A stretch of 64,000 nt of DNA. Source: Escherichia coli. GTDB lineage: Bacteria; Pseudomonadota; Gammaproteobacteria; Enterobacterales; Enterobacteriaceae. Below the pieces are notes generated by a model. It ran no database searches. It was not told where the DNA came from and saw only the letters and a program-made list of their open reading frames with translations. The DNA is taken from NCBI RefSeq assembly GCF_003334335.1, contig NZ_QOWQ01000011.1, one strand, 5' to 3'. Numbering within the stretch: position 1 is the first letter of the stretch; each line of letters starts with the position of its first letter. The position numbers and the translations under genes were made by a program. This document shows positions 457-54,670 of the stretch, piece by piece.

Positions 457-1037
457 TGGCATTCAGAATGAGTGAACAACCACGGACCATAAAAATTTAT
501 AATCTGCTGGCCGGAACTAATGAATTTATTGGTGAAGGTGATGCATATATTCCGCCTCATACAGGTCTGCCAGCAAACAGTACCGATATTGCACCGCCAG
601 ATATTCCGGCTGGCTTCGTGGCTGTTTTCAACAGTGATGAGTCATCGTGGCATCTTGTTGAAGACCATCGGGGTAAAACAGTTTATGACGTGGCATCAGG
701 GGACGCGTTATTTATTTCTGAACTCGGCTCATTACCGGAAAATGTTACCTGGTTATCCCCGGAAGGGGAGTTTCAGAAGTGGAACGGCACAGCCTGGGTG
801 AAGGATACGGAAGCAGAAAAACTGTTCCGGATCCGGGAGGTGGAAGAAACAAAAAACAGCCTGATGCAGGTAGCCAGTGAGCATATAGCGCCGCTTCAGG
901 ATGCTGTGGATCTGGAAATCGCAACGGAGGAAGAAACCTTGTTGCTGGAAGCCTGGAAAAAGTATCGGGTATTGCTGAACCGTGTTGATACGTCAACTGC
1001 ACAGGATATTGAATGGCCAGTAGCACCTATAGGGTAA
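456..1037 (+). CDS. tfa: Phage tail fibre assembly protein
   Basis: 193 aa ORF starting at the ATG that overlaps the fibre gene stop (TAATG). The sequence resembles Tfa-family chaperones of lambdoid and P2-like phages. Confidence 0.75.
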
Positions 1038-12540: not shown

Positions 12541-12637
12541 CCTGATGCGCTACGCTTATCAGGCCTACATTTTCTCCGCAATATATTGAATTTGCGCGGT
12601 TTGTAGGCCGGATAAGGCGTTCACGCCGCATCCGGCA
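12541..12637. repeat. Composite REP unit (two opposed REP palindromes around a shared spacer)
   Basis: CCTGATGCGCTACGCTTATCAGGCCTAC ... CAATATATTGAATTTGC ... GTAGGCCGGATAAGGCGTTCACGCCGCATCCGGCA. Confidence 0.85.
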
Positions 12638-13823: not shown

Positions 13824-13883
13824 AAAGTGTGGATGGTAAAAATCTCATTTACACGCTAGTATCGGCATAACCACTAAACACTC

Positions 13884-13998
13884 TAGCCTCTGCACCTGGG
13901 TCAACTGATACGGTGCTTTGGCCGTGACAATGCTCGTAAAGATTGCCACCAGGGCGAAGGAAGAAATGACTTCGCCTCCCGTATCTGGAAAGGTGTAC
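13884..13998 (+). ncRNA. Moco (molybdenum cofactor) riboswitch-like leader of moaA; boundaries approximate
   Basis: A conserved Moco RNA motif is known directly upstream of moaA in E. coli. Placed by position; I did not check the fold. Confidence 0.5.
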
Positions 13999-14988
13999 AT
14001 GGCTTCACAACTGACTGATGCATTTGCGCGTAAGTTTTACTACTTGCGCCTGTCGATTACCGATGTGTGTAACTTTCGTTGCACCTACTGCCTGCCGGAT
14101 GGCTACAAACCGAGCGGCGTCACCAATAAAGGCTTTCTTACCGTCGATGAAATTCGCCGGGTTACGCGCGCCTTCGCCAGTCTGGGCACCGAAAAAGTGC
14201 GCCTGACAGGAGGAGAGCCGTCTTTACGCCGCGACTTTACCGATATCATCGCCGCTGTGCGGGAAAACGACGCTATCCGCCAGATTGCGGTCACAACCAA
14301 TGGTTACCGTCTGGAACGCGATGTGGCGAGCTGGCGCGATGCGGGACTTACTGGCATTAACGTCAGTGTCGACAGTCTGGACGCCCGCCAGTTTCACGCT
14401 ATTACCGGGCAGGATAAATTCAACCAGGTCATGGCAGGGATTGATGCTGCATTTGAGGCCGGTTTTGAGAAGGTCAAAGTCAATACCGTGCTGATGCGTG
14501 ATGTTAATCATCACCAGCTCGACACCTTTCTGAACTGGATCCAGCATCGCCCTATCCAGCTGCGTTTCATCGAACTGATGGAAACGGGCGAGGGCAGCGA
14601 GCTCTTCCGTAAGCATCACATCTCTGGTCAGGTTCTGCGTGACGAGCTACTGCGTCGCGGCTGGATCCACCAATTACGTCAACGCAGCGACGGTCCCGCG
14701 CAAGTCTTTTGCCATCCAGATTACGCCGGAGAGATTGGCCTTATCATGCCGTATGAAAAAGACTTCTGCGCCACTTGCAACCGCCTGCGCGTTTCCTCCA
14801 TTGGTAAACTCCATCTCTGCCTGTTTGGTGAAGGCGGCGTTAACCTGCGCGATCTGCTGGAAGACGATACCCAGCAACAGGCGCTGGAAGCGCGTATTTC
14901 AGCGGCGCTGCGGGAGAAGAAACAGACCCATTTCCTGCATCAAAACAACACCGGTATTACGCAAAACTTATCGTACATTGGCGGCTAA
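13999..14988 (+). CDS. moaA: GTP 3',8-cyclase (radical SAM)
   Basis: Start set at [31 protein letters not shown] (329 aa). Confidence 0.95.
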
Positions 14989-17747: not shown

Positions 17748-18461
17748 ATGGAATCATACTCGCAAAACAGCAATAAATTAGATTTTCAGCACGAGGCCAG
17801 GATATTAAACGGTATATGGCTCATTACCGCTTTAGGTTTGGTGGCAACCGCAGGACTAGCCTGGGGAGCTAAGTATCTCGAAATTACGGCAACCAAATAT
17901 GATTCACCACCAATGTATGTCGCCATAGGGTTATTATTACTTTGTATGTATGGCTTAAGTAAGGATATCAACAAGATAAATGCCGCCATCGCGGGCGTAA
18001 TATATCTGTTTTTACTCTCTTTGGTGGCGATTGTCGTTGCAAGTTTAGTTCCTGTATATGCCATTATCATCGTGTTCAGCACTGCGGGCGCGATGTTTTT
18101 AATCAGTATGCTGGCCGGTTTATTATTTAATGTTGATCCTGGTTCTCACCGTTTTATCATTATGATGACGTTGACAGGGTTGGCCCTGGTAATCATCGTG
18201 AATGCGGCATTAATGAGTGAACGGCCCATTTGGGTAATAAGTTGCTTAATGATTGTGTTATGGCCAGGCATTATCTCGCATGGACGAAATAAGCTCCTTG
18301 AACTGGCAGGAAAATGCCATAGTGAAGAGTTGTGGAGTCCGGTTCGTTGCGCTTTTACAGGTGCATTAACACTCTATTACTATTTTATCGGCTTCTTTGG
18401 GATACTTGCCGCGATAGCTATAACGCTTGTCTGGCAAAGGCATACGCGTTTTTTTCATTAG
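17748..18461 (+). CDS. ybhM: BAX inhibitor-1-like inner membrane protein
   Basis: 237 aa, hydrophobic, lower GC than neighbours. Confidence 0.85.
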   Translation: MESYSQNSNKLDFQHEARILNGIWLITALGLVATAGLAWGAKYLEITATKYDSPPMYVAIGLLLLCMYGLSKDINKINAAIAGVIYLFLLSLVAIVVASLVPVYAIIIVFSTAGAMFLISMLAGLLFNVDPGSHRFIIMMTLTGLALVIIVNAALMSERPIWVISCLMIVLWPGIISHGRNKLLELAGKCHSEELWSPVRCAFTGALTLYYYFIGFFGILAAIAITLVWQRHTRFFH

Positions 18462-18496
18462 TCGTAAATGCAGATACTAAAGAACTTAACTGAACT

Positions 18497-19453
18497 TCAC
18501 ATCGCCGCTTCATTTTTCGCTCGTAGCTTTTTCGCCTGGCTTTCCAGCAACAGGTAACAGATCAGCGCCAGCAGCAGTGGGATAAAGTAATACAGCACAC
18601 GGTAAGCGAGCAGGGCGGCGATAATTGTGCCTTTGGTGATATGCTCCCCAGCCAGTAGCGCGATAAACACCGCTTCCAGCACACCAATTCCCGCCGGAAT
18701 ATGCACGATGACGCCTGCAATACTACTAACCAGCAACACGCCCAGTACAAAGAAATAGTTAACGCTTTGACCAAGTAACAGCCAGATAATCGCCCCCATT
18801 ACCATCCAGTTAACGCTGGAAATCAGCATCTGGGCGAGGGCGAATTTCCATGAAGGCAGTACCAGCTTTTGCCCTTTAATGGTCATATGGCGGTGCTTCG
18901 CGAAAGCGCAAAACCACAAATAAACCGCGATAATCATCAGTAAGCCAATGCCGAGAATACGCAGCGTAGTTTGATCGACATACCAGTGATCCGGCAACTC
19001 CACCACGCCTGCGGTAAAGATAATCCCCGCCAGTAAAATATAGCCCAGCCAGTTGGTGGTGATACTGAGCGAGAAAATCCGCGTAATAGTGCTACCGGGC
19101 AACCCCAGACGAGAGTACAAACGATAGCGCATACCAATGCCGCCGACCCAGGTACTGAGTGTCAGGTTGAAGGCGTAGCAGATAAACGACACCAGCATCA
19201 CCTGGCGCTTCGCCAGTTTGTGACCGCAGTAAAAGCGGGCGAGCAGGTCATAGCAGCCGTAAATCAGATAACTGACGACCACCAGCCCGACCGCACTGAG
19301 CAGCGCAACGCGATTGTAGTCACGGATGACCTTCCAGACCTCTTCCCAGTCCACCTTTTTGGCGTAGACCACCAGCAACACAATCACCGCGATAAAAAAC
19401 AGCCAGGTGAGGATCTTCTTTGCTAAGCGCCAGCGCGGGTGTGATTTACTCAT
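18497..19453 (-). CDS. ybhN: Inner membrane protein with lysylphosphatidylglycerol synthase-like transmembrane region
   Basis: 318 aa; its start overlaps the clsB stop. Confidence 0.88.
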   Translation of the reverse strand: MSKSHPRWRLAKKILTWLFFIAVIVLLVVYAKKVDWEEVWKVIRDYNRVALLSAVGLVVVSYLIYGCYDLLARFYCGHKLAKRQVMLVSFICYAFNLTLSTWVGGIGMRYRLYSRLGLPGSTITRIFSLSITTNWLGYILLAGIIFTAGVVELPDHWYVDQTTLRILGIGLLMIIAVYLWFCAFAKHRHMTIKGQKLVLPSWKFALAQMLISSVNWMVMGAIIWLLLGQSVNYFFVLGVLLVSSIAGVIVHIPAGIGVLEAVFIALLAGEHITKGTIIAALLAYRVLYYFIPLLLALICYLLLESQAKKLRAKNEAAM

Positions 19454-20694
19454 CAGGGTTTTACCCCCGTGTTTTCAGTTTCTACCCGATCCTGCGTTTC
19501 CATTGTCGGTTGTGCGGGGGGATCAACCTGCGTCAGACGTGGTGTGTGTGCCGGAAGCCAGCCAACCAGCGCCGGGAAGTGGCGTAAAAAGTGGAACGCC
19601 AGCACGCTTTTGGTCAGGTTCCACCAGGTGCGTTTCGGCAGCATGGTCTCATCGACCTGCTGACAATCTGCGGCAATAATGCCGTTCAGATTATCGCGCA
19701 GCGTCTGGTTAAAATGACGATCGTGGATGATGACATTTGCTTCGAGATTCAGTGACAAACTGAGCGGATCGAGATTACTGGACCCTACTGTCGCCCAGTG
19801 ATCGTCCATCAATGCCACTTTGCCGTGGAGCGGGCGGCGGCGGTACTCAAATACCTGAACGCCGCCTTTAACCAGATAGTTATACAGCAAGCGCGCACCG
19901 ACTCTGACAATCGGCATATCCGGTTCGCCCTGAATGATCAGTTTGATCCGCACCCCGCGCCGTGCCGCTTTACGCAAGGCGTGTAAAAATCGATAGCCGG
20001 GGAAGAAGTAGGCGTTGGCGATAATGACTTCTCGCTGCGCCTGAGTGAGCATTTTCAGATAGTGACGTTCAATATCATCGCGATGTTCTTCGTTATCGCG
20101 CCAGACCAGCAATACCTGCGCTTCTCCCGGCTGGCGGTTCTCTTCCGCTTTGTGATGACGTCGCCACCAGCGTCGTGCCGCGCTCTGTCCAGGCAGGTTT
20201 TCCAGCTCAAACTGGAGAATATCTTCGACAATCGGCCCTTCAAGGCGTACCGCGTAATCCTGTTTAGCCTCTGGACCGTAGCTGGACATATGCTCGGCGG
20301 AGTAATTCAGCCCGCCAATAAAGGCGATACGCGCGTCGATCACCACAATTTTGCGATGCATCCGGCGAAACACATTGGTGCGCATACCAAAAAGGCGAGG
20401 GCGGGGATCGTAGTAGCGAAATACCACGCCAGCTGCCGTCAGTTCATTGACAAACTCATCGCTGAGATCCGGCGAACCGTAGCCATCCAGCAAGACTTCC
20501 GCTTTAACCCCGCGTTGCGCTGCTGCCAGTAGTGCCGCATGCAGCTGTTTGCCGACGTCATCCTCAAACCAGATAAACGTTTCAAGAATGATGCGTTCTT
20601 GTGCCTCGCCAATCGCCTTAAACACCGCGGGATAATATTGCTCGCCGTTTTCCAGCAACTCGATCTTATTGCCTTCACGCCAGCTACATTTCAT
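19453..20694 (-). CDS. clsB: Cardiolipin synthase B (phospholipase D family)
   Basis: 413 aa with two HKD-type motifs (HRKIVVID..., HGKVALMDD...). Confidence 0.93.
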
Positions 20695-21452
20695 AAATGA
20701 ATCTCCGCACTTAAAGGGGCATGATCAGAAAGGTGTCGCCATGTCTGCAGCGGCAACGCGGTTGGCGCGCTGGCGCTGGCATTTTTGACGTAGATCCTGT
20801 CCAGACGTAGTAGAGGAAATTGCACCGGAAACGTGCGCGCCGGGCGTCCGTGGGCGCGGGTAAATATCTCATCCAGCCCGGCCTGCACTTTTAACGGATG
20901 ATTAGCTTTTTGCCGCCAGTCGTTGAAATCACCCGCCACCAATACTGGTTCGCCGTCCGGCAGCTCATTGACCCATTCGGCGAGCATCGCAAGCTGCGCC
21001 TGACGGTGCGCCTCACGCAGGCCCAGATGTACGCACATCACATGAATCGCTTTTCCGGTCATCGGCGGCACAATGCGGCAGTAGAGCACGCCGCGCTTTT
21101 CCGCACCATCGACCGAAACATCGCGATTCTCATAATGTTCAATGGGATAACGCGACAGTACGGCGTTGCCGTGATGCCCTTCCGGGTATACGGCATTGCG
21201 ACCGTAGGCAAAATCGCTCCACATAGTGTCGGCGAGAAACTCGTAGTGCGAGGTATCGGGCCAGTTTTCCACATGCAGCGGATGAACTTCGTGCGCGCCC
21301 ATCACTTCCTGCAGGCAAACAATATCGGCGCTGACGGTACGCACGGCATCGCGAAGTTCCGGCAAAATGAAGCGTCGGTTAAACGCGGTAAAGCCTTTGT
21401 GAATATTGATGGTGAGCACCTTGAACGAAAATTGTTGTGTTTGATCGGGCAT
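20691..21452 (-). CDS. ybhP: Endonuclease/exonuclease/phosphatase family protein
   Basis: 253 aa; 4-bp overlap with clsB. Confidence 0.9.
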
Positions 21453-21584
21453 AATTTTCCTGTCTTTGCCTCTTATCTCATTGAAATAGTGTAGTCGGCG
21501 TCACAAAAAGGTGCGGTCTTACGGAATTTTCCGTAAAGTTCGGTACTCTGAGTAAGTAGAGATAAATTCTTCAGGAGAGAAGCC

Positions 21585-21995
21585 ATGAAGTGGCAACAAC
21601 GTGTTCGTGTCGCAACGGGTCTAAGTTGCTGGCAGATTATGTTGCATTTACTGGTAGTGGCGCTGCTGGTGGTGGGCTGGATGAGTAAGACTCTGGTTCA
21701 CGTCGGCGTGGGATTATGCGCACTGTATTGTGTCACGGTAGTGATGATGCTGGTGTTTCAGCGCCACCCCGAGCAACGCTGGCGTGAGGTGGCAGACGTG
21801 CTGGAAGAGCTGACCACGACCTGGTATTTTGGCGCAGCGCTGATTGTGCTGTGGCTGTTGTCCCGCGTACTGGAAAACAACTTTTTGCTGGCAATTGCAG
21901 GGCTGGCGATCCTTGCTGGCCCGGCGGTAGTGTCTTTGCTGGCGAAAGATAAGAAGTTACATCACCTTACGTCTAAACATCGCGTACGCCGCTGA
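21585..21995 (+). CDS. ybhQ: Inner membrane protein YbhQ
   Basis: 136 aa hydrophobic protein; its 3' end overlaps the ybhR 3' end on the other strand. Confidence 0.8.
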
Positions 21996-23063
21996 CCCTG
22001 TCGTGGCCGTTATCACCAGTAGCGGCCACAAACTATTCCACACAATATCCAGACTCGCATCCTTCAAATAAATCTGCTTGGTAATGTCCGTAAAGTGGCG
22101 AATAGGGTTAATCCACGTCAGGTTTTGCAGCCATACTGGCATGTTTTCCACCGGAGAAACGTAACCGGAAAGGAGAATGGCGGGCATCATAAAAACAAAC
22201 ACGCCGATAAACGCCTGCTGTTGTGTCGAGCAGAGTGATGAAATCAACAGACCGAATCCCACCAGCGATAAACCGTAAATCACCATCGTAAAGTAGAACA
22301 GCGCCAGCGATCCGGCGAAGGGGATTTGATACGCCCAGATACCAATCGCCAGCACAATGGTGGCCTGGAAGGTGGCGACAATTAACGCCGGTACGGCTTT
22401 GCCGATGAAGATCTGCCAGGTGGTGAGCGGCGAAACCAGTAGCTGATCGAGCGTACCTTGTTCACGTTCGCGGGCGACGGAAAGTGAAGTGACGATCATT
22501 ACGCCGATAGTGGTGATCATGGCGATCAGCGACGGCACCACAAACCATTTGTAGTCAAGATTCGGGTTATACCAGTTGCGTACCACCAGCTCGCTGTTGT
22601 TAGGTTTCGGTTTTCCTTCCAGCAGCTCCTGCTGATAATTTTTGACGATCTGTTGCAGGTAGTTGGCGGCAATTTGCGCACTGTTGGAGTTACGCCCGTC
22701 GAGGATCAACTGCAACGGCGCGGTCTGGAAGGTATCCAGTTTGCGCGAGAAGTCAGCCGGGAAACGCACCAGTAGTAACGCCTTTTGTGTGTCGATGGTT
22801 GGGCGGATCTCCTGTGGGCTTTTCAGCAGCAGCACATGGGTAAAGGCGCTGGCGCGGGCAAAACGTTGGGTCAGCTCCACCGAATGCTCGCCGTTATCTT
22901 CATCGTAGATGGCGATGGTGGCGTTAGTCACTTCCAGCGTGGCGGCGAACGGGAACAGGATCACCTGAATAAGCACAGGTAAAATCAGAATCGCGCGGGT
23001 TTGTGGTTCGCGCAGCAACGACTGCAACTCTTTGCGGATTAACGTCCATAAGCGATGAAACAT
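21957..23063 (-). CDS. ybhR: ABC-2 type exporter permease
   Basis: 368 aa, recognised. Confidence 0.92.
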
Positions 23064-29244: not shown

Positions 29245-29341
<97 letters not shown>

Positions 29342-34494: not shown

Positions 34495-34617
34495 CTGGAC
34501 GTAGCGTAAACGCCTGATCCGTCCAACGGTTCGGATTTTGTAGGCCTGATAAGACGCGGTAGCGTCGCATCAGGCATCTGTTGCCGGATGCGGCGTAAAC
34601 GCCTTATCCGTCCTACG
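34495..34617. repeat. REP cluster between ybiC and ybiJ
   Basis: Several REP palindromes (GTAGGCCTGATAAGACGCGGTAGCGTCGCATCAGGC, CCGGATGCGGCGTAAACGCCTTATCCG). Confidence 0.8.
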
Positions 34618-54571: not shown

Positions 54572-54670
54572 CCTGATGCGCTACGCTTATCAGGCCTACG
54601 CAGTACCTGCAATATATTGAATCTGCAGGACTTTGTAGGCCGGATAAGGCGTTAACGCCGCATCAGGCAT
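54572..54670. repeat. Composite REP unit, third copy in the same orientation as 12541-12637
   Basis: Same architecture and spacer (CAATATATTGAATCTGC). Confidence 0.85.

What the first reader, a model, noticed from the sequence alone, without database searches (positions are those of the whole stretch)
18497..21452. Translational coupling in the ybhP-clsB-ybhN operon
The ybhP stop overlaps the clsB start by 4 bp and the clsB stop overlaps the ybhN start by 1 bp. A phospholipase D-type cardiolipin synthase is thus tightly linked to a phosphoesterase and to a membrane protein resembling the flippase-like domain of lysyl-phosphatidylglycerol synthases. This suggests a shared lipid-modification role.
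Basis: partly seen in the sequence, partly recalled or inferred. Interest (0 to 1): 0.25.

Follow-up and report, generated by a model that had tools for sequence, protein, structure and literature searches.

The report
Known E. coli ybhP-clsB-ybhN lipid operon
The three overlapping genes are the already described E. coli ybhP-clsB-ybhN operon, an ordinary annotated feature; its gene order and stop/start overlaps are kept across many bacteria, which supports a shared role in modifying and moving membrane lipids.

Summary
ybhP (20691-21452), clsB (19453-20694) and ybhN (18497-19453) lie on the minus strand. They overlap by ATGA (4 nt) and TGATG (1 nt), and each start is the first possible start codon of its ORF.

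The domain calls also hold: an EEP phosphoesterase, ClsB (two HKD motifs), and a stand-alone MprF-type lipid-transport domain.

Such overlaps are common: 11 of 39 same-strand neighbour pairs in this region overlap. These two, however, are conserved. In 80 genomes of gamma- and betaproteobacteria the three genes are always adjacent and in the same order. The EEP/ClsB junction is NTGA in 78 of 83 loci, with a GGAG inside the upstream gene and rare Leu codons that create the ATG. The ClsB/YbhN junction is a 4-nt or 1-nt overlap in 74 of 81 unfused junctions. In at least 7 protein clusters from metagenomes or unnamed assemblies the two are one fused protein.

In 27 of 80 loci, mostly pseudomonads, the trio sits among trehalose/alpha-glucan genes. 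This fits the published need for ClsB in trehalose phospholipid synthesis.

The operon, the ClsB-YbhN interaction and the shared lipid role are already published. Translational coupling itself is inferred, not shown. Verdict: already known, low interest.

The parts
20691..21452 (-). ybhP: cytoplasmic endonuclease/exonuclease/phosphatase (EEP) family phosphoesterase, 253 aa
   Evidence: ORF; Pfam PF03372 over residues 14-244, E=6e-23. EEP catalytic positions N16, E49, D175/N177, D218 and D243-H244 are invariant in 62 orthologues. AF2 model has pLDDT 84; the top solved fold match is human neutral sphingomyelinase, followed by TDP2.
19453..20694 (-). clsB: phospholipase-D-type transphosphatidylase (cardiolipin synthase B), 413 aa
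   Evidence: NCBIfam NF008427 at 749.9 bits (cutoff 281). Pfam PLDc_2 x2 plus PLDc. HKD motifs HRK at residue 113 and HGK at residue 290. It aligns to positions 117-472 of the 483-position bacterial cardiolipin synthase model, so it lacks that model's N-terminal part.
18497..19453 (-). ybhN: stand-alone MprF-type lipid transport (flippase/scramblase-like, PplT/UPF0104) membrane protein, 318 aa
   Evidence: Pfam PF03706. NCBIfam MprF model matched only at positions 3-301 of 841. Aligns to residues 40-342 of the solved P. aeruginosa-type MprF 9goe and to 6lvf/7duw.
20691..20694 (-). ATGA stop/start overlap of ybhP and clsB
   Evidence: The NTGA overlap is conserved in 78 of 83 loci from other genera.
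20703..20706 (-). GGAG Shine-Dalgarno-like motif for clsB, inside the last codons of ybhP, 8 nt upstream of the ATG
   Evidence: GGAG is at the same place in 67/82 loci. In 13/13 other Enterobacterales the codons are NNG GAG, although the residue before Glu varies between Ala and Val.
19451..19455 (-). TGATG stop/start overlap of clsB and ybhN
   Evidence: Elsewhere 28 loci have this 1-nt type, 46 have the NTGA type and 4 are in-frame fusions.
19463..19468 (-). GGGGGT, a weaker Shine-Dalgarno-like motif for ybhN, 9 nt upstream of its ATG, inside clsB
   Evidence: Read from the sequence. Its conservation was not analysed.
21458..21461 (-). AGGA Shine-Dalgarno-like motif for ybhP
   Evidence: Read from the sequence.
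21488..21506 (-). Conserved promoter-like element TTGTGAC-N5-CTACACT upstream of ybhP; the CTACACT resembles a sigma-S type -10
   Evidence: Conserved in 12 of 14 Enterobacterales upstream regions; coordinates checked. RpoS dependence of ybhP-ybhO is published (PMC2907692). The sigma-S reading of the motif is my inference from the known consensus. The generic sigma-70 scan found nothing on this strand.

Best explanation
This is the E. coli ybhP-clsB-ybhN operon, a stress/stationary-phase-induced three-gene module that remodels phospholipid head groups. ClsB is a PLD-type transphosphatidylase without the N-terminal part of ClsA-type synthases. It exchanges the head group of a phospholipid at the cytoplasmic face of the inner membrane. 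Published products are cardiolipin or PG in vitro or when over-expressed, and 6-phosphatidyltrehalose and 6,6'-diphosphatidyltrehalose (PT/diPT) in vivo. YbhN is the MprF transport domain on its own and moves lipid between leaflets. ClsB plus YbhN therefore work like a split MprF, that is a synthase plus a translocator. YbhP is a catalytically intact Mg-dependent EEP phosphoesterase. It performs an accessory hydrolytic step on the head group, substrate or product; which step is unknown. The 4-nt and 1-nt stop/start overlaps, together with Shine-Dalgarno motifs inside the upstream genes, let ribosomes finishing one gene start the next, so the three proteins are made together. Shown here: the overlaps, the domain identities, the conservation of order and junctions, and the fusions. 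Published: co-regulation, the ClsB-YbhN two-hybrid interaction, and the ClsB requirement for PT/diPT. Inferred: actual translational coupling, lipid flipping by YbhN, and the reaction of YbhP.
For: Anatomy. Families. Co-conservation: 80 genome loci from Pseudomonas, Stutzerimonas, Cellvibrio, Variovorax, Bordetella, Achromobacter, Rhizobacter, Caldimonas, Rivibacter and 14 Enterobacterales all carry EEP-ClsB-YbhN in the same order and on the same strand. No flanking gene family is present in more than 28 of the roughly 83 loci analysed. Spot checks keep the trio down to 40% ClsB identity (L088-L090). Junction selection: NTGA in 78/83 loci; TGA stop in 82/82; rare CTA/TTA as last codon in 46/82; GGAG in 67/82. 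Rosetta-stone fusions: 7 representatives of 50%-identity clusters (707-797 aa) carry full ClsB and YbhN domains in one chain, each preceded by an EEP gene with the same 4-nt overlap in the loci read. Two of these clusters recur in 5 and 13 independent assemblies. Literature: operon and ClsB-PplT(YbhN) two-hybrid interaction (10.1101/2022.03.11.483950); the whole operon on a plasmid restores and over-produces cardiolipin in Salmonella, and H290A is inactive (PMC9241728); ClsB is essential for PT/diPT (PMC6446866); joint induction; the MprF transport domain is a promiscuous scramblase (PMC11980842).
Against: No direct measurement of coupling exists. Each gene has its own Shine-Dalgarno-like motif, so independent initiation is possible. 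Induction falls along the operon (17.6x, 12.3x, 4.4x), so expression is not strictly equal. Overlaps are common in this genome region (11/39 pairs). Published clsB deletions do not change cardiolipin levels, and a pplT(ybhN) deletion had the same phospholipid pattern as wild type, so the physiological product is unsettled. The YbhP fold matches DNA/RNA phosphodiesterases (TDP2, ANGEL2) almost as well as sphingomyelinase.
Confidence: 0.8

Rival explanations
1. The overlaps are only compact operon packing. The three genes are co-transcribed, but each is translated from its own ribosome-binding site, and the overlap has no regulatory meaning.
For: Overlaps are frequent: 11 of 39 same-strand pairs in the region overlap, 6 of them by 1 or 4 nt. 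Each gene has its own SD-like motif. Induction ratios differ along the operon.
Against: The exact NTGA geometry is kept in 78/83 loci at about 50-60% protein identity. It is kept by rare Leu codons (CTA/TTA) and an invariant TGA stop. In 13/13 other Enterobacterales the GGAG is preserved through synonymous and non-synonymous change. The second junction goes as far as gene fusion.
Confidence: 0.15
2. The operon is a stationary-phase cardiolipin system. ClsB makes cardiolipin from PG, YbhN redistributes cardiolipin or PG, and trehalose lipids are a side reaction.
For: The whole operon on a plasmid restores and over-produces cardiolipin in a Salmonella triple cls mutant (PMC9241728). YbhN interacts with PgpA/B/C and ClsB. 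The name and the NCBIfam equivalog point the same way.
Against: Single clsB deletions leave cardiolipin unchanged but abolish PT/diPT (PMC6446866). In 27/80 loci the trio lies among trehalose/alpha-glucan genes. This model gives no obvious need for an EEP phosphoesterase.
Confidence: 0.3
3. YbhP is a nucleic-acid enzyme (the old annotation was 'predicted DNase') with no role in lipid metabolism, and it merely shares the transcript.
For: Weak NCBIfam and PDB sequence hits are to exodeoxyribonuclease III. TDP2 and ANGEL2 are among the best fold matches.
Against: The EEP gene is adjacent to ClsB in 79/79 evaluable loci and in 8 further metagenome or unnamed-assembly loci. This includes a PLD relative at 37% identity that has no YbhN next to it. 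Its 3' end carries the conserved start signals of clsB. The single best solved fold match is a lipid phosphodiesterase, human neutral sphingomyelinase.
Confidence: 0.1

Closest known systems
E. coli/Salmonella ybhP-clsB-ybhN ('clsB operon', pplT operon) as described in bioRxiv 10.1101/2022.03.11.483950 and PMC9241728
   Same: It is the same locus, with the same three genes, order and annotation.
   Different: Nothing differs in the window itself. Four points were not found in the papers read here: the junction conservation, the ClsB-YbhN fusions, the spread of the EEP-PLD pair beyond the trio, and the embedding in trehalose/alpha-glucan clusters.
MprF (bifunctional aminoacyl-PG synthase/flippase)
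   Same: YbhN is homologous to the MprF transport domain. A cytoplasmic lipid-modifying enzyme is paired with, or fused to, that domain.
   Different: The enzyme is a PLD-type transphosphatidylase, not the aminoacyl-tRNA-dependent GNAT-like synthase. In the natural fusions the enzyme is N-terminal and the transport domain C-terminal, the reverse of MprF. In E. coli the two are separate proteins.
gpgSDF of P. aeruginosa and hexSDF of C. difficile (PMC12713373): head-group synthase, head-group-processing hydrolase and YbhN/UPF0104-family predicted flippase in one three-gene predicted operon
   Same: The logic is the same: cytoplasmic synthase, cytoplasmic hydrolase, and YbhN-family membrane protein.
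   Different: The chemistry differs. Those systems use a glycosyltransferase and a deacetylase; this one has a PLD transphosphatidylase and an EEP phosphoesterase. The gene order also differs (hydrolase first here). The hydrolase's substrate is unknown here.
ClsA and ClsC cardiolipin synthases
   Same: Same PLD superfamily with two HKD motifs.
   Different: ClsB lacks the N-terminal ~116 positions of the ClsA-type model. It has different partner genes, and in vivo it is needed for trehalose phospholipids rather than for bulk cardiolipin.

Membership tests
Translationally coupled gene pair (stop/start overlap) | Same-strand ORFs whose stop and start codons overlap | tested here: met
   ATGA at 20691-20694 and TGATG at 19451-19455.
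Translationally coupled gene pair (stop/start overlap) | Ribosome-binding motif for the downstream gene inside the upstream gene, kept by selection | tested here: met
   GGAG lies 8 nt before the clsB ATG. It is present in 67/82 loci. The NNG GAG codons are present in 13/13 other Enterobacterales. Rare CTA/TTA last codons create the ATG. For ybhN only a weaker GGGGGT was seen.
Translationally coupled gene pair (stop/start overlap) | Downstream translation depends on translation of the upstream gene | not testable with these tools
   This needs reporter fusions with premature stops in the upstream gene.
ClsB (NCBIfam NF008427, PLD superfamily) | Score above the curated cutoff over the full length | tested here: met
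   749.9 bits against a cutoff of 281; residues 1-408 match model positions 1-408 of 409.
ClsB (NCBIfam NF008427, PLD superfamily) | Two HxK(x)4D catalytic motifs | tested here: met
   HRKIVVID from residue 113 and HGKVALMD from residue 290. H290A is reported inactive in Salmonella.
EEP family (Pfam PF03372) | Domain match and the conserved catalytic Asn/Glu/Asp/His set | tested here: met
   E=6e-23 over residues 14-244. N16, E49, D175, N177, D218, D243 and H244 are invariant in 62 sequences.
EEP family (Pfam PF03372) | Substrate class (lipid, sugar phosphate or nucleic acid) | tested here: inconclusive
   The fold search puts neutral sphingomyelinase first (E=9.4e-15), but TDP2 and ANGEL2 are nearly equal.
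MprF | PF03706 transport domain | tested here: met
MprF | C-terminal aminoacyl-PG synthase domain | tested here: not met
   YbhN is 318 aa and matches only positions 3-301 of the 841-position MprF model, at 164 bits against a cutoff of 600. It is a stand-alone YbhN/PplT protein, not an MprF.
Trehalose phospholipid (PT/diPT) pathway | ClsB orthologue present | tested here: met
   The Salmonella ClsB cluster is 86% identical.
Trehalose phospholipid (PT/diPT) pathway | Genomic linkage to trehalose synthesis genes | tested here: inconclusive
   No linkage in the E. coli region (no tre/ots genes) or in any of 14 Enterobacterales loci. Linkage is present in 27/80 loci: treS-maltokinase, glgB and glgX in pseudomonads and Cellvibrio; otsA and otsB in Rhizobacter and in L005.
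Trehalose phospholipid (PT/diPT) pathway | PT/diPT produced, and dependent on ybhP or ybhN | not testable with these tools
   This needs lipidomics. Published data cover only clsB and did not detect PT/diPT in P. aeruginosa, B. pertussis or Shigella.
Anti-phage defence PLD systems (DISARM DrmC and similar) | Match to a defence-system model at family level | tested here: not met
   Only generic PLD-level hits to DrmC (at most 66 bits in PADLOC; 74 bits against a cutoff of 133 in NCBIfam). YbhP and YbhN have no PADLOC hit.

The most novel reading that the evidence does not exclude
The trio may be a dedicated 'synthase, head-group-processing enzyme, flippase' module for trehalose phospholipids, or a related glyco-phospholipid. 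It would follow the same logic as gpgSDF. ClsB phosphatidylates trehalose or trehalose-6-phosphate. YbhP removes a phosphate from, or otherwise trims, the lipid-linked head group, as inositol 5-phosphatases of the same EEP fold do on PIP2. YbhN exports the product. In pseudomonads the module would be an overlooked part of the osmotic-stress trehalose/alpha-glucan gene cluster. YbhP and YbhN would be the 'unknown additional requirements' that make PT/diPT production strain-dependent.
Probability: 0.3. Interest if true: 0.55.

Novelty: already known. Interest (0 to 1): 0.22.

Why it matters
The window feature is textbook operon organisation in a locus that is annotated in every E. coli genome and discussed in recent papers, so it changes nothing by itself. 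The comparative results sharpen an open question: what YbhP and YbhN do, and what ClsB really makes. Three results bear on it. ClsB and YbhN occur as one polypeptide in several lineages. The EEP-ClsB pair is the most persistent core. In many pseudomonads the module lies inside the trehalose/alpha-glucan cluster. ClsB-dependent trehalose phospholipids activate the innate immune receptor Mincle (PMC6446866), so knowing the full pathway would matter for Salmonella and E. coli envelope biology. These leads are directly testable with three deletion mutants and lipidomics.

Tried and rejected
- The word-indexed protein search with ClsB listed only enterobacterial proteins of 78-99% identity and gave no diversity. 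The exhaustive representative search was needed.
- PDB sequence searches found nothing for ClsB and only a marginal ExoIII hit for YbhP.
- The generic promoter/terminator scan of 18200-21800 found no more sites than shuffled sequence, and none on the minus strand upstream of ybhP. The 35-bp ybhN-ybhM gap does not fold better than shuffles (z = +1.85), so no intrinsic terminator can be named.
- The first trehalose test, with OtsA and OtsB queries only, found just L005/L006 and L065. The link in pseudomonads appeared only after flanking-gene clustering and NCBIfam naming of GlgB, TreS and GlgX.
- A defence-system reading (PLD plus nuclease-like EEP) was rejected.
- Rfam found no RNA family within 18497-21600.
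- Cluster look-up gave no organism names for the fusion proteins, so their taxa remain unknown. Nearest-neighbour identity of their EEP genes only says they are proteobacteria-like.
- I recalled that the P. aeruginosa trio is PA2154-PA2156. I could not verify the gene identities with the tools. The papers confirm only that PA2156 and PA2157 lie between the two trehalose operons and are co-regulated.
- A fusion or complex structure prediction was considered and dropped, because the tool reports no interface confidence.
Full report
**Observation.** The window is E. coli chromosome. The 3.4-kb stretch around the finding is 100% identical to several complete genomes, and 5424 of 5426 complete E. 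coli genomes carry it. Each begins at the first possible start codon of its reading frame. Reading the strand shows ...GCG GAG ATT CAT TTA TGA with the clsB ATG overlapping as ATGA (20691-20694). It also shows ...AAA CCC TGA TG with the ybhN ATG overlapping as TGATG (19451-19455). RefSeq annotates the same three CDS as ybhP, clsB and ybhN.

**Is it more than chance?** An overlap alone is not remarkable. In the annotated homologous 64 kb of E. coli HS, 11 of 39 same-strand adjacent CDS pairs overlap, 6 of them by 1 or 4 nt. What is not chance is the conservation, described below.

**What the proteins are.**
- YbhP is an EEP-family phosphoesterase (PF03372, E=6e-23). The catalytic Asn/Glu/Asp/His positions are invariant in 62 orthologues.
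- ClsB matches its NCBIfam equivalog at 749.9 bits against a cutoff of 281. It has two HKD motifs, at H113 and H290. It aligns only to positions 117-472 of the 483-position bacterial cardiolipin synthase (ClsA-type) model, so it lacks that N-terminal part.
- YbhN is PF03706. It aligns to residues 40-342 of solved MprF structures, which is the transport domain. It lacks the synthase domain.
- None of the three is a defence-system protein.

An exhaustive search of 1.84 billion representative proteins with ClsB gave diverse relatives. A scan of one genome per species with an alignment of 17 of them returned 80 loci:

| Group | Loci |
|---|---|
| Pseudomonas | 40 |
| Stutzerimonas | 12 |
| Enterobacterales | 14 |
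| Burkholderiales (Variovorax, Bordetella, Achromobacter, Rhizobacter, Rivibacter, Caldimonas) | 9 |
| Cellvibrionales | 2 |
| Unclassified MAGs | 3 |

- Searching their six-frame ORFs with the three E. coli proteins found an EEP gene immediately upstream in 79 of 79 evaluable loci. A YbhN gene lies immediately downstream in 80 of 80. All are on the same strand.
- Flanking genes are lineage-specific. The commonest neighbour, a DUF72 gene, is present in only 28 loci.
- These 80 are the best-scoring relatives and not a random sample, so I also spot-checked more distant representatives:

| ClsB identity | Locus | Result |
|---|---|---|
| 47% | L088 | complete trio |
| 44% | L089 | complete trio |
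| 40% | L090 | complete trio |
| 39% | L091 | no EEP gene |
| 37% | L092/L093 | EEP-PLD pair (8-nt overlap), no YbhN gene |
| 32% | L094 | neither partner |

- The EEP-PLD pair therefore persists in one relative (37% identity) that has no adjacent YbhN gene.

**Junction conservation.**
- The EEP stop and ClsB start form NTGA in 78 of 83 loci.
- The EEP stop codon is TGA in 82 of 82. It is preceded by A (54), G (25) or T (3), never C.
- The last sense codon is CTA in 34 and TTA in 12. From general knowledge these are rare Leu codons in these organisms, which suggests they are kept to form the ATG.
- GGAG sits 8 nt before the start in 67 of 82. In 13 of 13 other Enterobacterales the codons read NNG GAG, even though the residue before the Glu varies between Ala and Val.
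- The ClsB/YbhN junction is an NTGA-type 4-nt overlap in 46 loci and a TGATG/TAATG 1-nt overlap in 28. It is different in 7, and 4 metagenomic loci are in-frame fusions.
- This is the signature expected of selection on termination-reinitiation. It is still indirect evidence.

**Fusions.**
- Seven representatives of separate 50%-identity clusters (707-797 aa, 44-53% identical to E. coli ClsB) carry a complete ClsB domain followed by a complete YbhN domain.
- Two of these clusters recur in 5 and 13 independent assemblies, so they are not sequencing errors.
- In every fusion locus read, an EEP gene precedes the fusion with the same 4-nt overlap.
- ClsB and YbhN therefore act together. The enzyme is N-terminal and the transport domain C-terminal, the mirror image of MprF.

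**Link to trehalose.**
- In L005/L006 the fused operon directly follows a trehalose-phosphatase gene. It lies next to a trehalose-6-phosphate synthase gene and a TreS-like gene.
- In a Rhizobacter MAG, otsB and otsA lie upstream on the same strand.
- In pseudomonads and a Cellvibrio MAG the trio sits between glgX on one side and the convergent glgB and treS-maltokinase genes on the other.
- In total 27 of 80 genome loci have such a gene within 8 kb. None of the 14 Enterobacterales loci does, and neither does the E. coli region.
- Papers on P. aeruginosa place PA2156 and PA2157 between the two trehalose operons, PA2151-2153 and PA2160-2165, in one co-regulated stress cluster (PMC3224232; PMC3591346). 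The two trehalose papers I searched do not mention a cardiolipin synthase or phospholipase there.
- Against it, the same study did not detect these lipids in P. aeruginosa, B. pertussis or Shigella under its culture conditions.

**YbhP.** An AlphaFold model built on 62 orthologues (pLDDT 84, pTM 0.87) matches human neutral sphingomyelinase best among solved structures (E=9.4e-15). TDP2 and ANGEL2 follow closely. The fold cannot decide between a lipid, sugar-phosphate or nucleic-acid substrate. The invariant linkage to ClsB argues for a role in the same pathway.

**Regulation.**
- Published transcriptomics show joint induction: 17.6x, 12.3x and 4.4x with a LolCDE inhibitor (PMC5105897), induction by fluoride (PMC10100675), and RpoS dependence of ybhP-ybhO (PMC2907692).
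- Upstream of ybhP, TTGTGAC-N5-CTACACT (21488-21506) is conserved in 12 of 14 Enterobacterales. I read it as a sigma-S-type -10 element; this is an inference.
- No intrinsic terminator is recognisable after ybhN.

**Comparison with what is known.**
- The operon, its presence in Enterobacteriaceae and a ClsB-YbhN two-hybrid interaction are described in the PplT preprint. That preprint does not mention PLD fusions or trehalose.
- The Salmonella 'clsB operon' has been cloned as ybhP-clsB-ybhN.
- A 2025 paper on MprF cites YbhN's position next to cardiolipin synthesis genes.
- The nearest functional paradigms are MprF and the gpgSDF/hexSDF synthase-deacetylase-flippase operons.
- The trio works like these but is a member of neither. 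YbhN fails the MprF synthase-domain criterion, and the enzymes belong to other families.

**Verdict.**
- Novelty is 'already known' and interest is low (0.22).
- The most novel reading not excluded is that the trio is a dedicated trehalose-phospholipid synthase/processing/export module that is part of the pseudomonad trehalose cluster. I give this a probability of about 0.3. It would be of moderate interest if true.

Noticed in passing
window 21519-21536 (ybhP-ybhQ intergenic region): A perfect 18-bp palindrome, TTACGGAAAATTCCGTAA, lies about 25 bp upstream of the CTACACT element. It is perfect or nearly so (1-2 mismatches) in 7 of the 14 aligned upstream regions, all Enterobacteriaceae, and looks like a binding site for an unidentified regulator.
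   Followed up: partly
window 21957-21995: ybhQ (+, 21585-21995) and ybhR (-, 21957-23063) converge, and their 3' ends overlap by 39 bp.
   Followed up: no
L084 4657-10240 (Cellvibrio MAG): Tandem duplication: EEP-ClsB-YbhN is followed directly by a second ClsB-YbhN pair without its own EEP gene. The block is flanked by glgX and treS.
   Followed up: partly
L010 6287-7204 and 27 other pseudomonad/Cellvibrio loci: A DUF72 gene (PF01904, related to E. coli PRK10302) lies directly upstream of the EEP gene on the same strand in 28 loci. It may be a fourth member of the operon in those lineages.
   Followed up: partly
L092 3265-5170 and L093: A PLD relative at 37% identity to ClsB keeps the upstream EEP gene (8-nt overlap) but has no YbhN gene. 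The EEP-PLD pair therefore persists here without an adjacent YbhN gene.
   Followed up: partly
L091 1119-2946: A GT2 glycosyltransferase gene overlaps a PF03706 (YbhN-family) gene, about 1 kb from a distant ClsB-like PLD gene. This is a different synthase-plus-flippase pairing of the gpgSDF kind.
   Followed up: no
protein P0122 (568 aa): A ClsB relative (57% identity) with a low-complexity Ala/Pro/Gln-rich insert of about 100 residues between the two PLD halves, and a long Ala/Pro-rich tail.
   Followed up: no
window 799-997, 13867-14011, 34543-34613, 12561-12602, 29265-29307, 54592-54634: Rfam matches elsewhere in the window: IS009, the Moco riboswitch before moaA, naRNA4, and three ES036 copies. 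None lies in the finding.
   Followed up: no
window 18462-18496: Only 35 bp separate the convergent stops of ybhN and ybhM. The region has no terminator-like fold (z = +1.85 against shuffles), so where the operon's transcript ends is unclear.
   Followed up: partly
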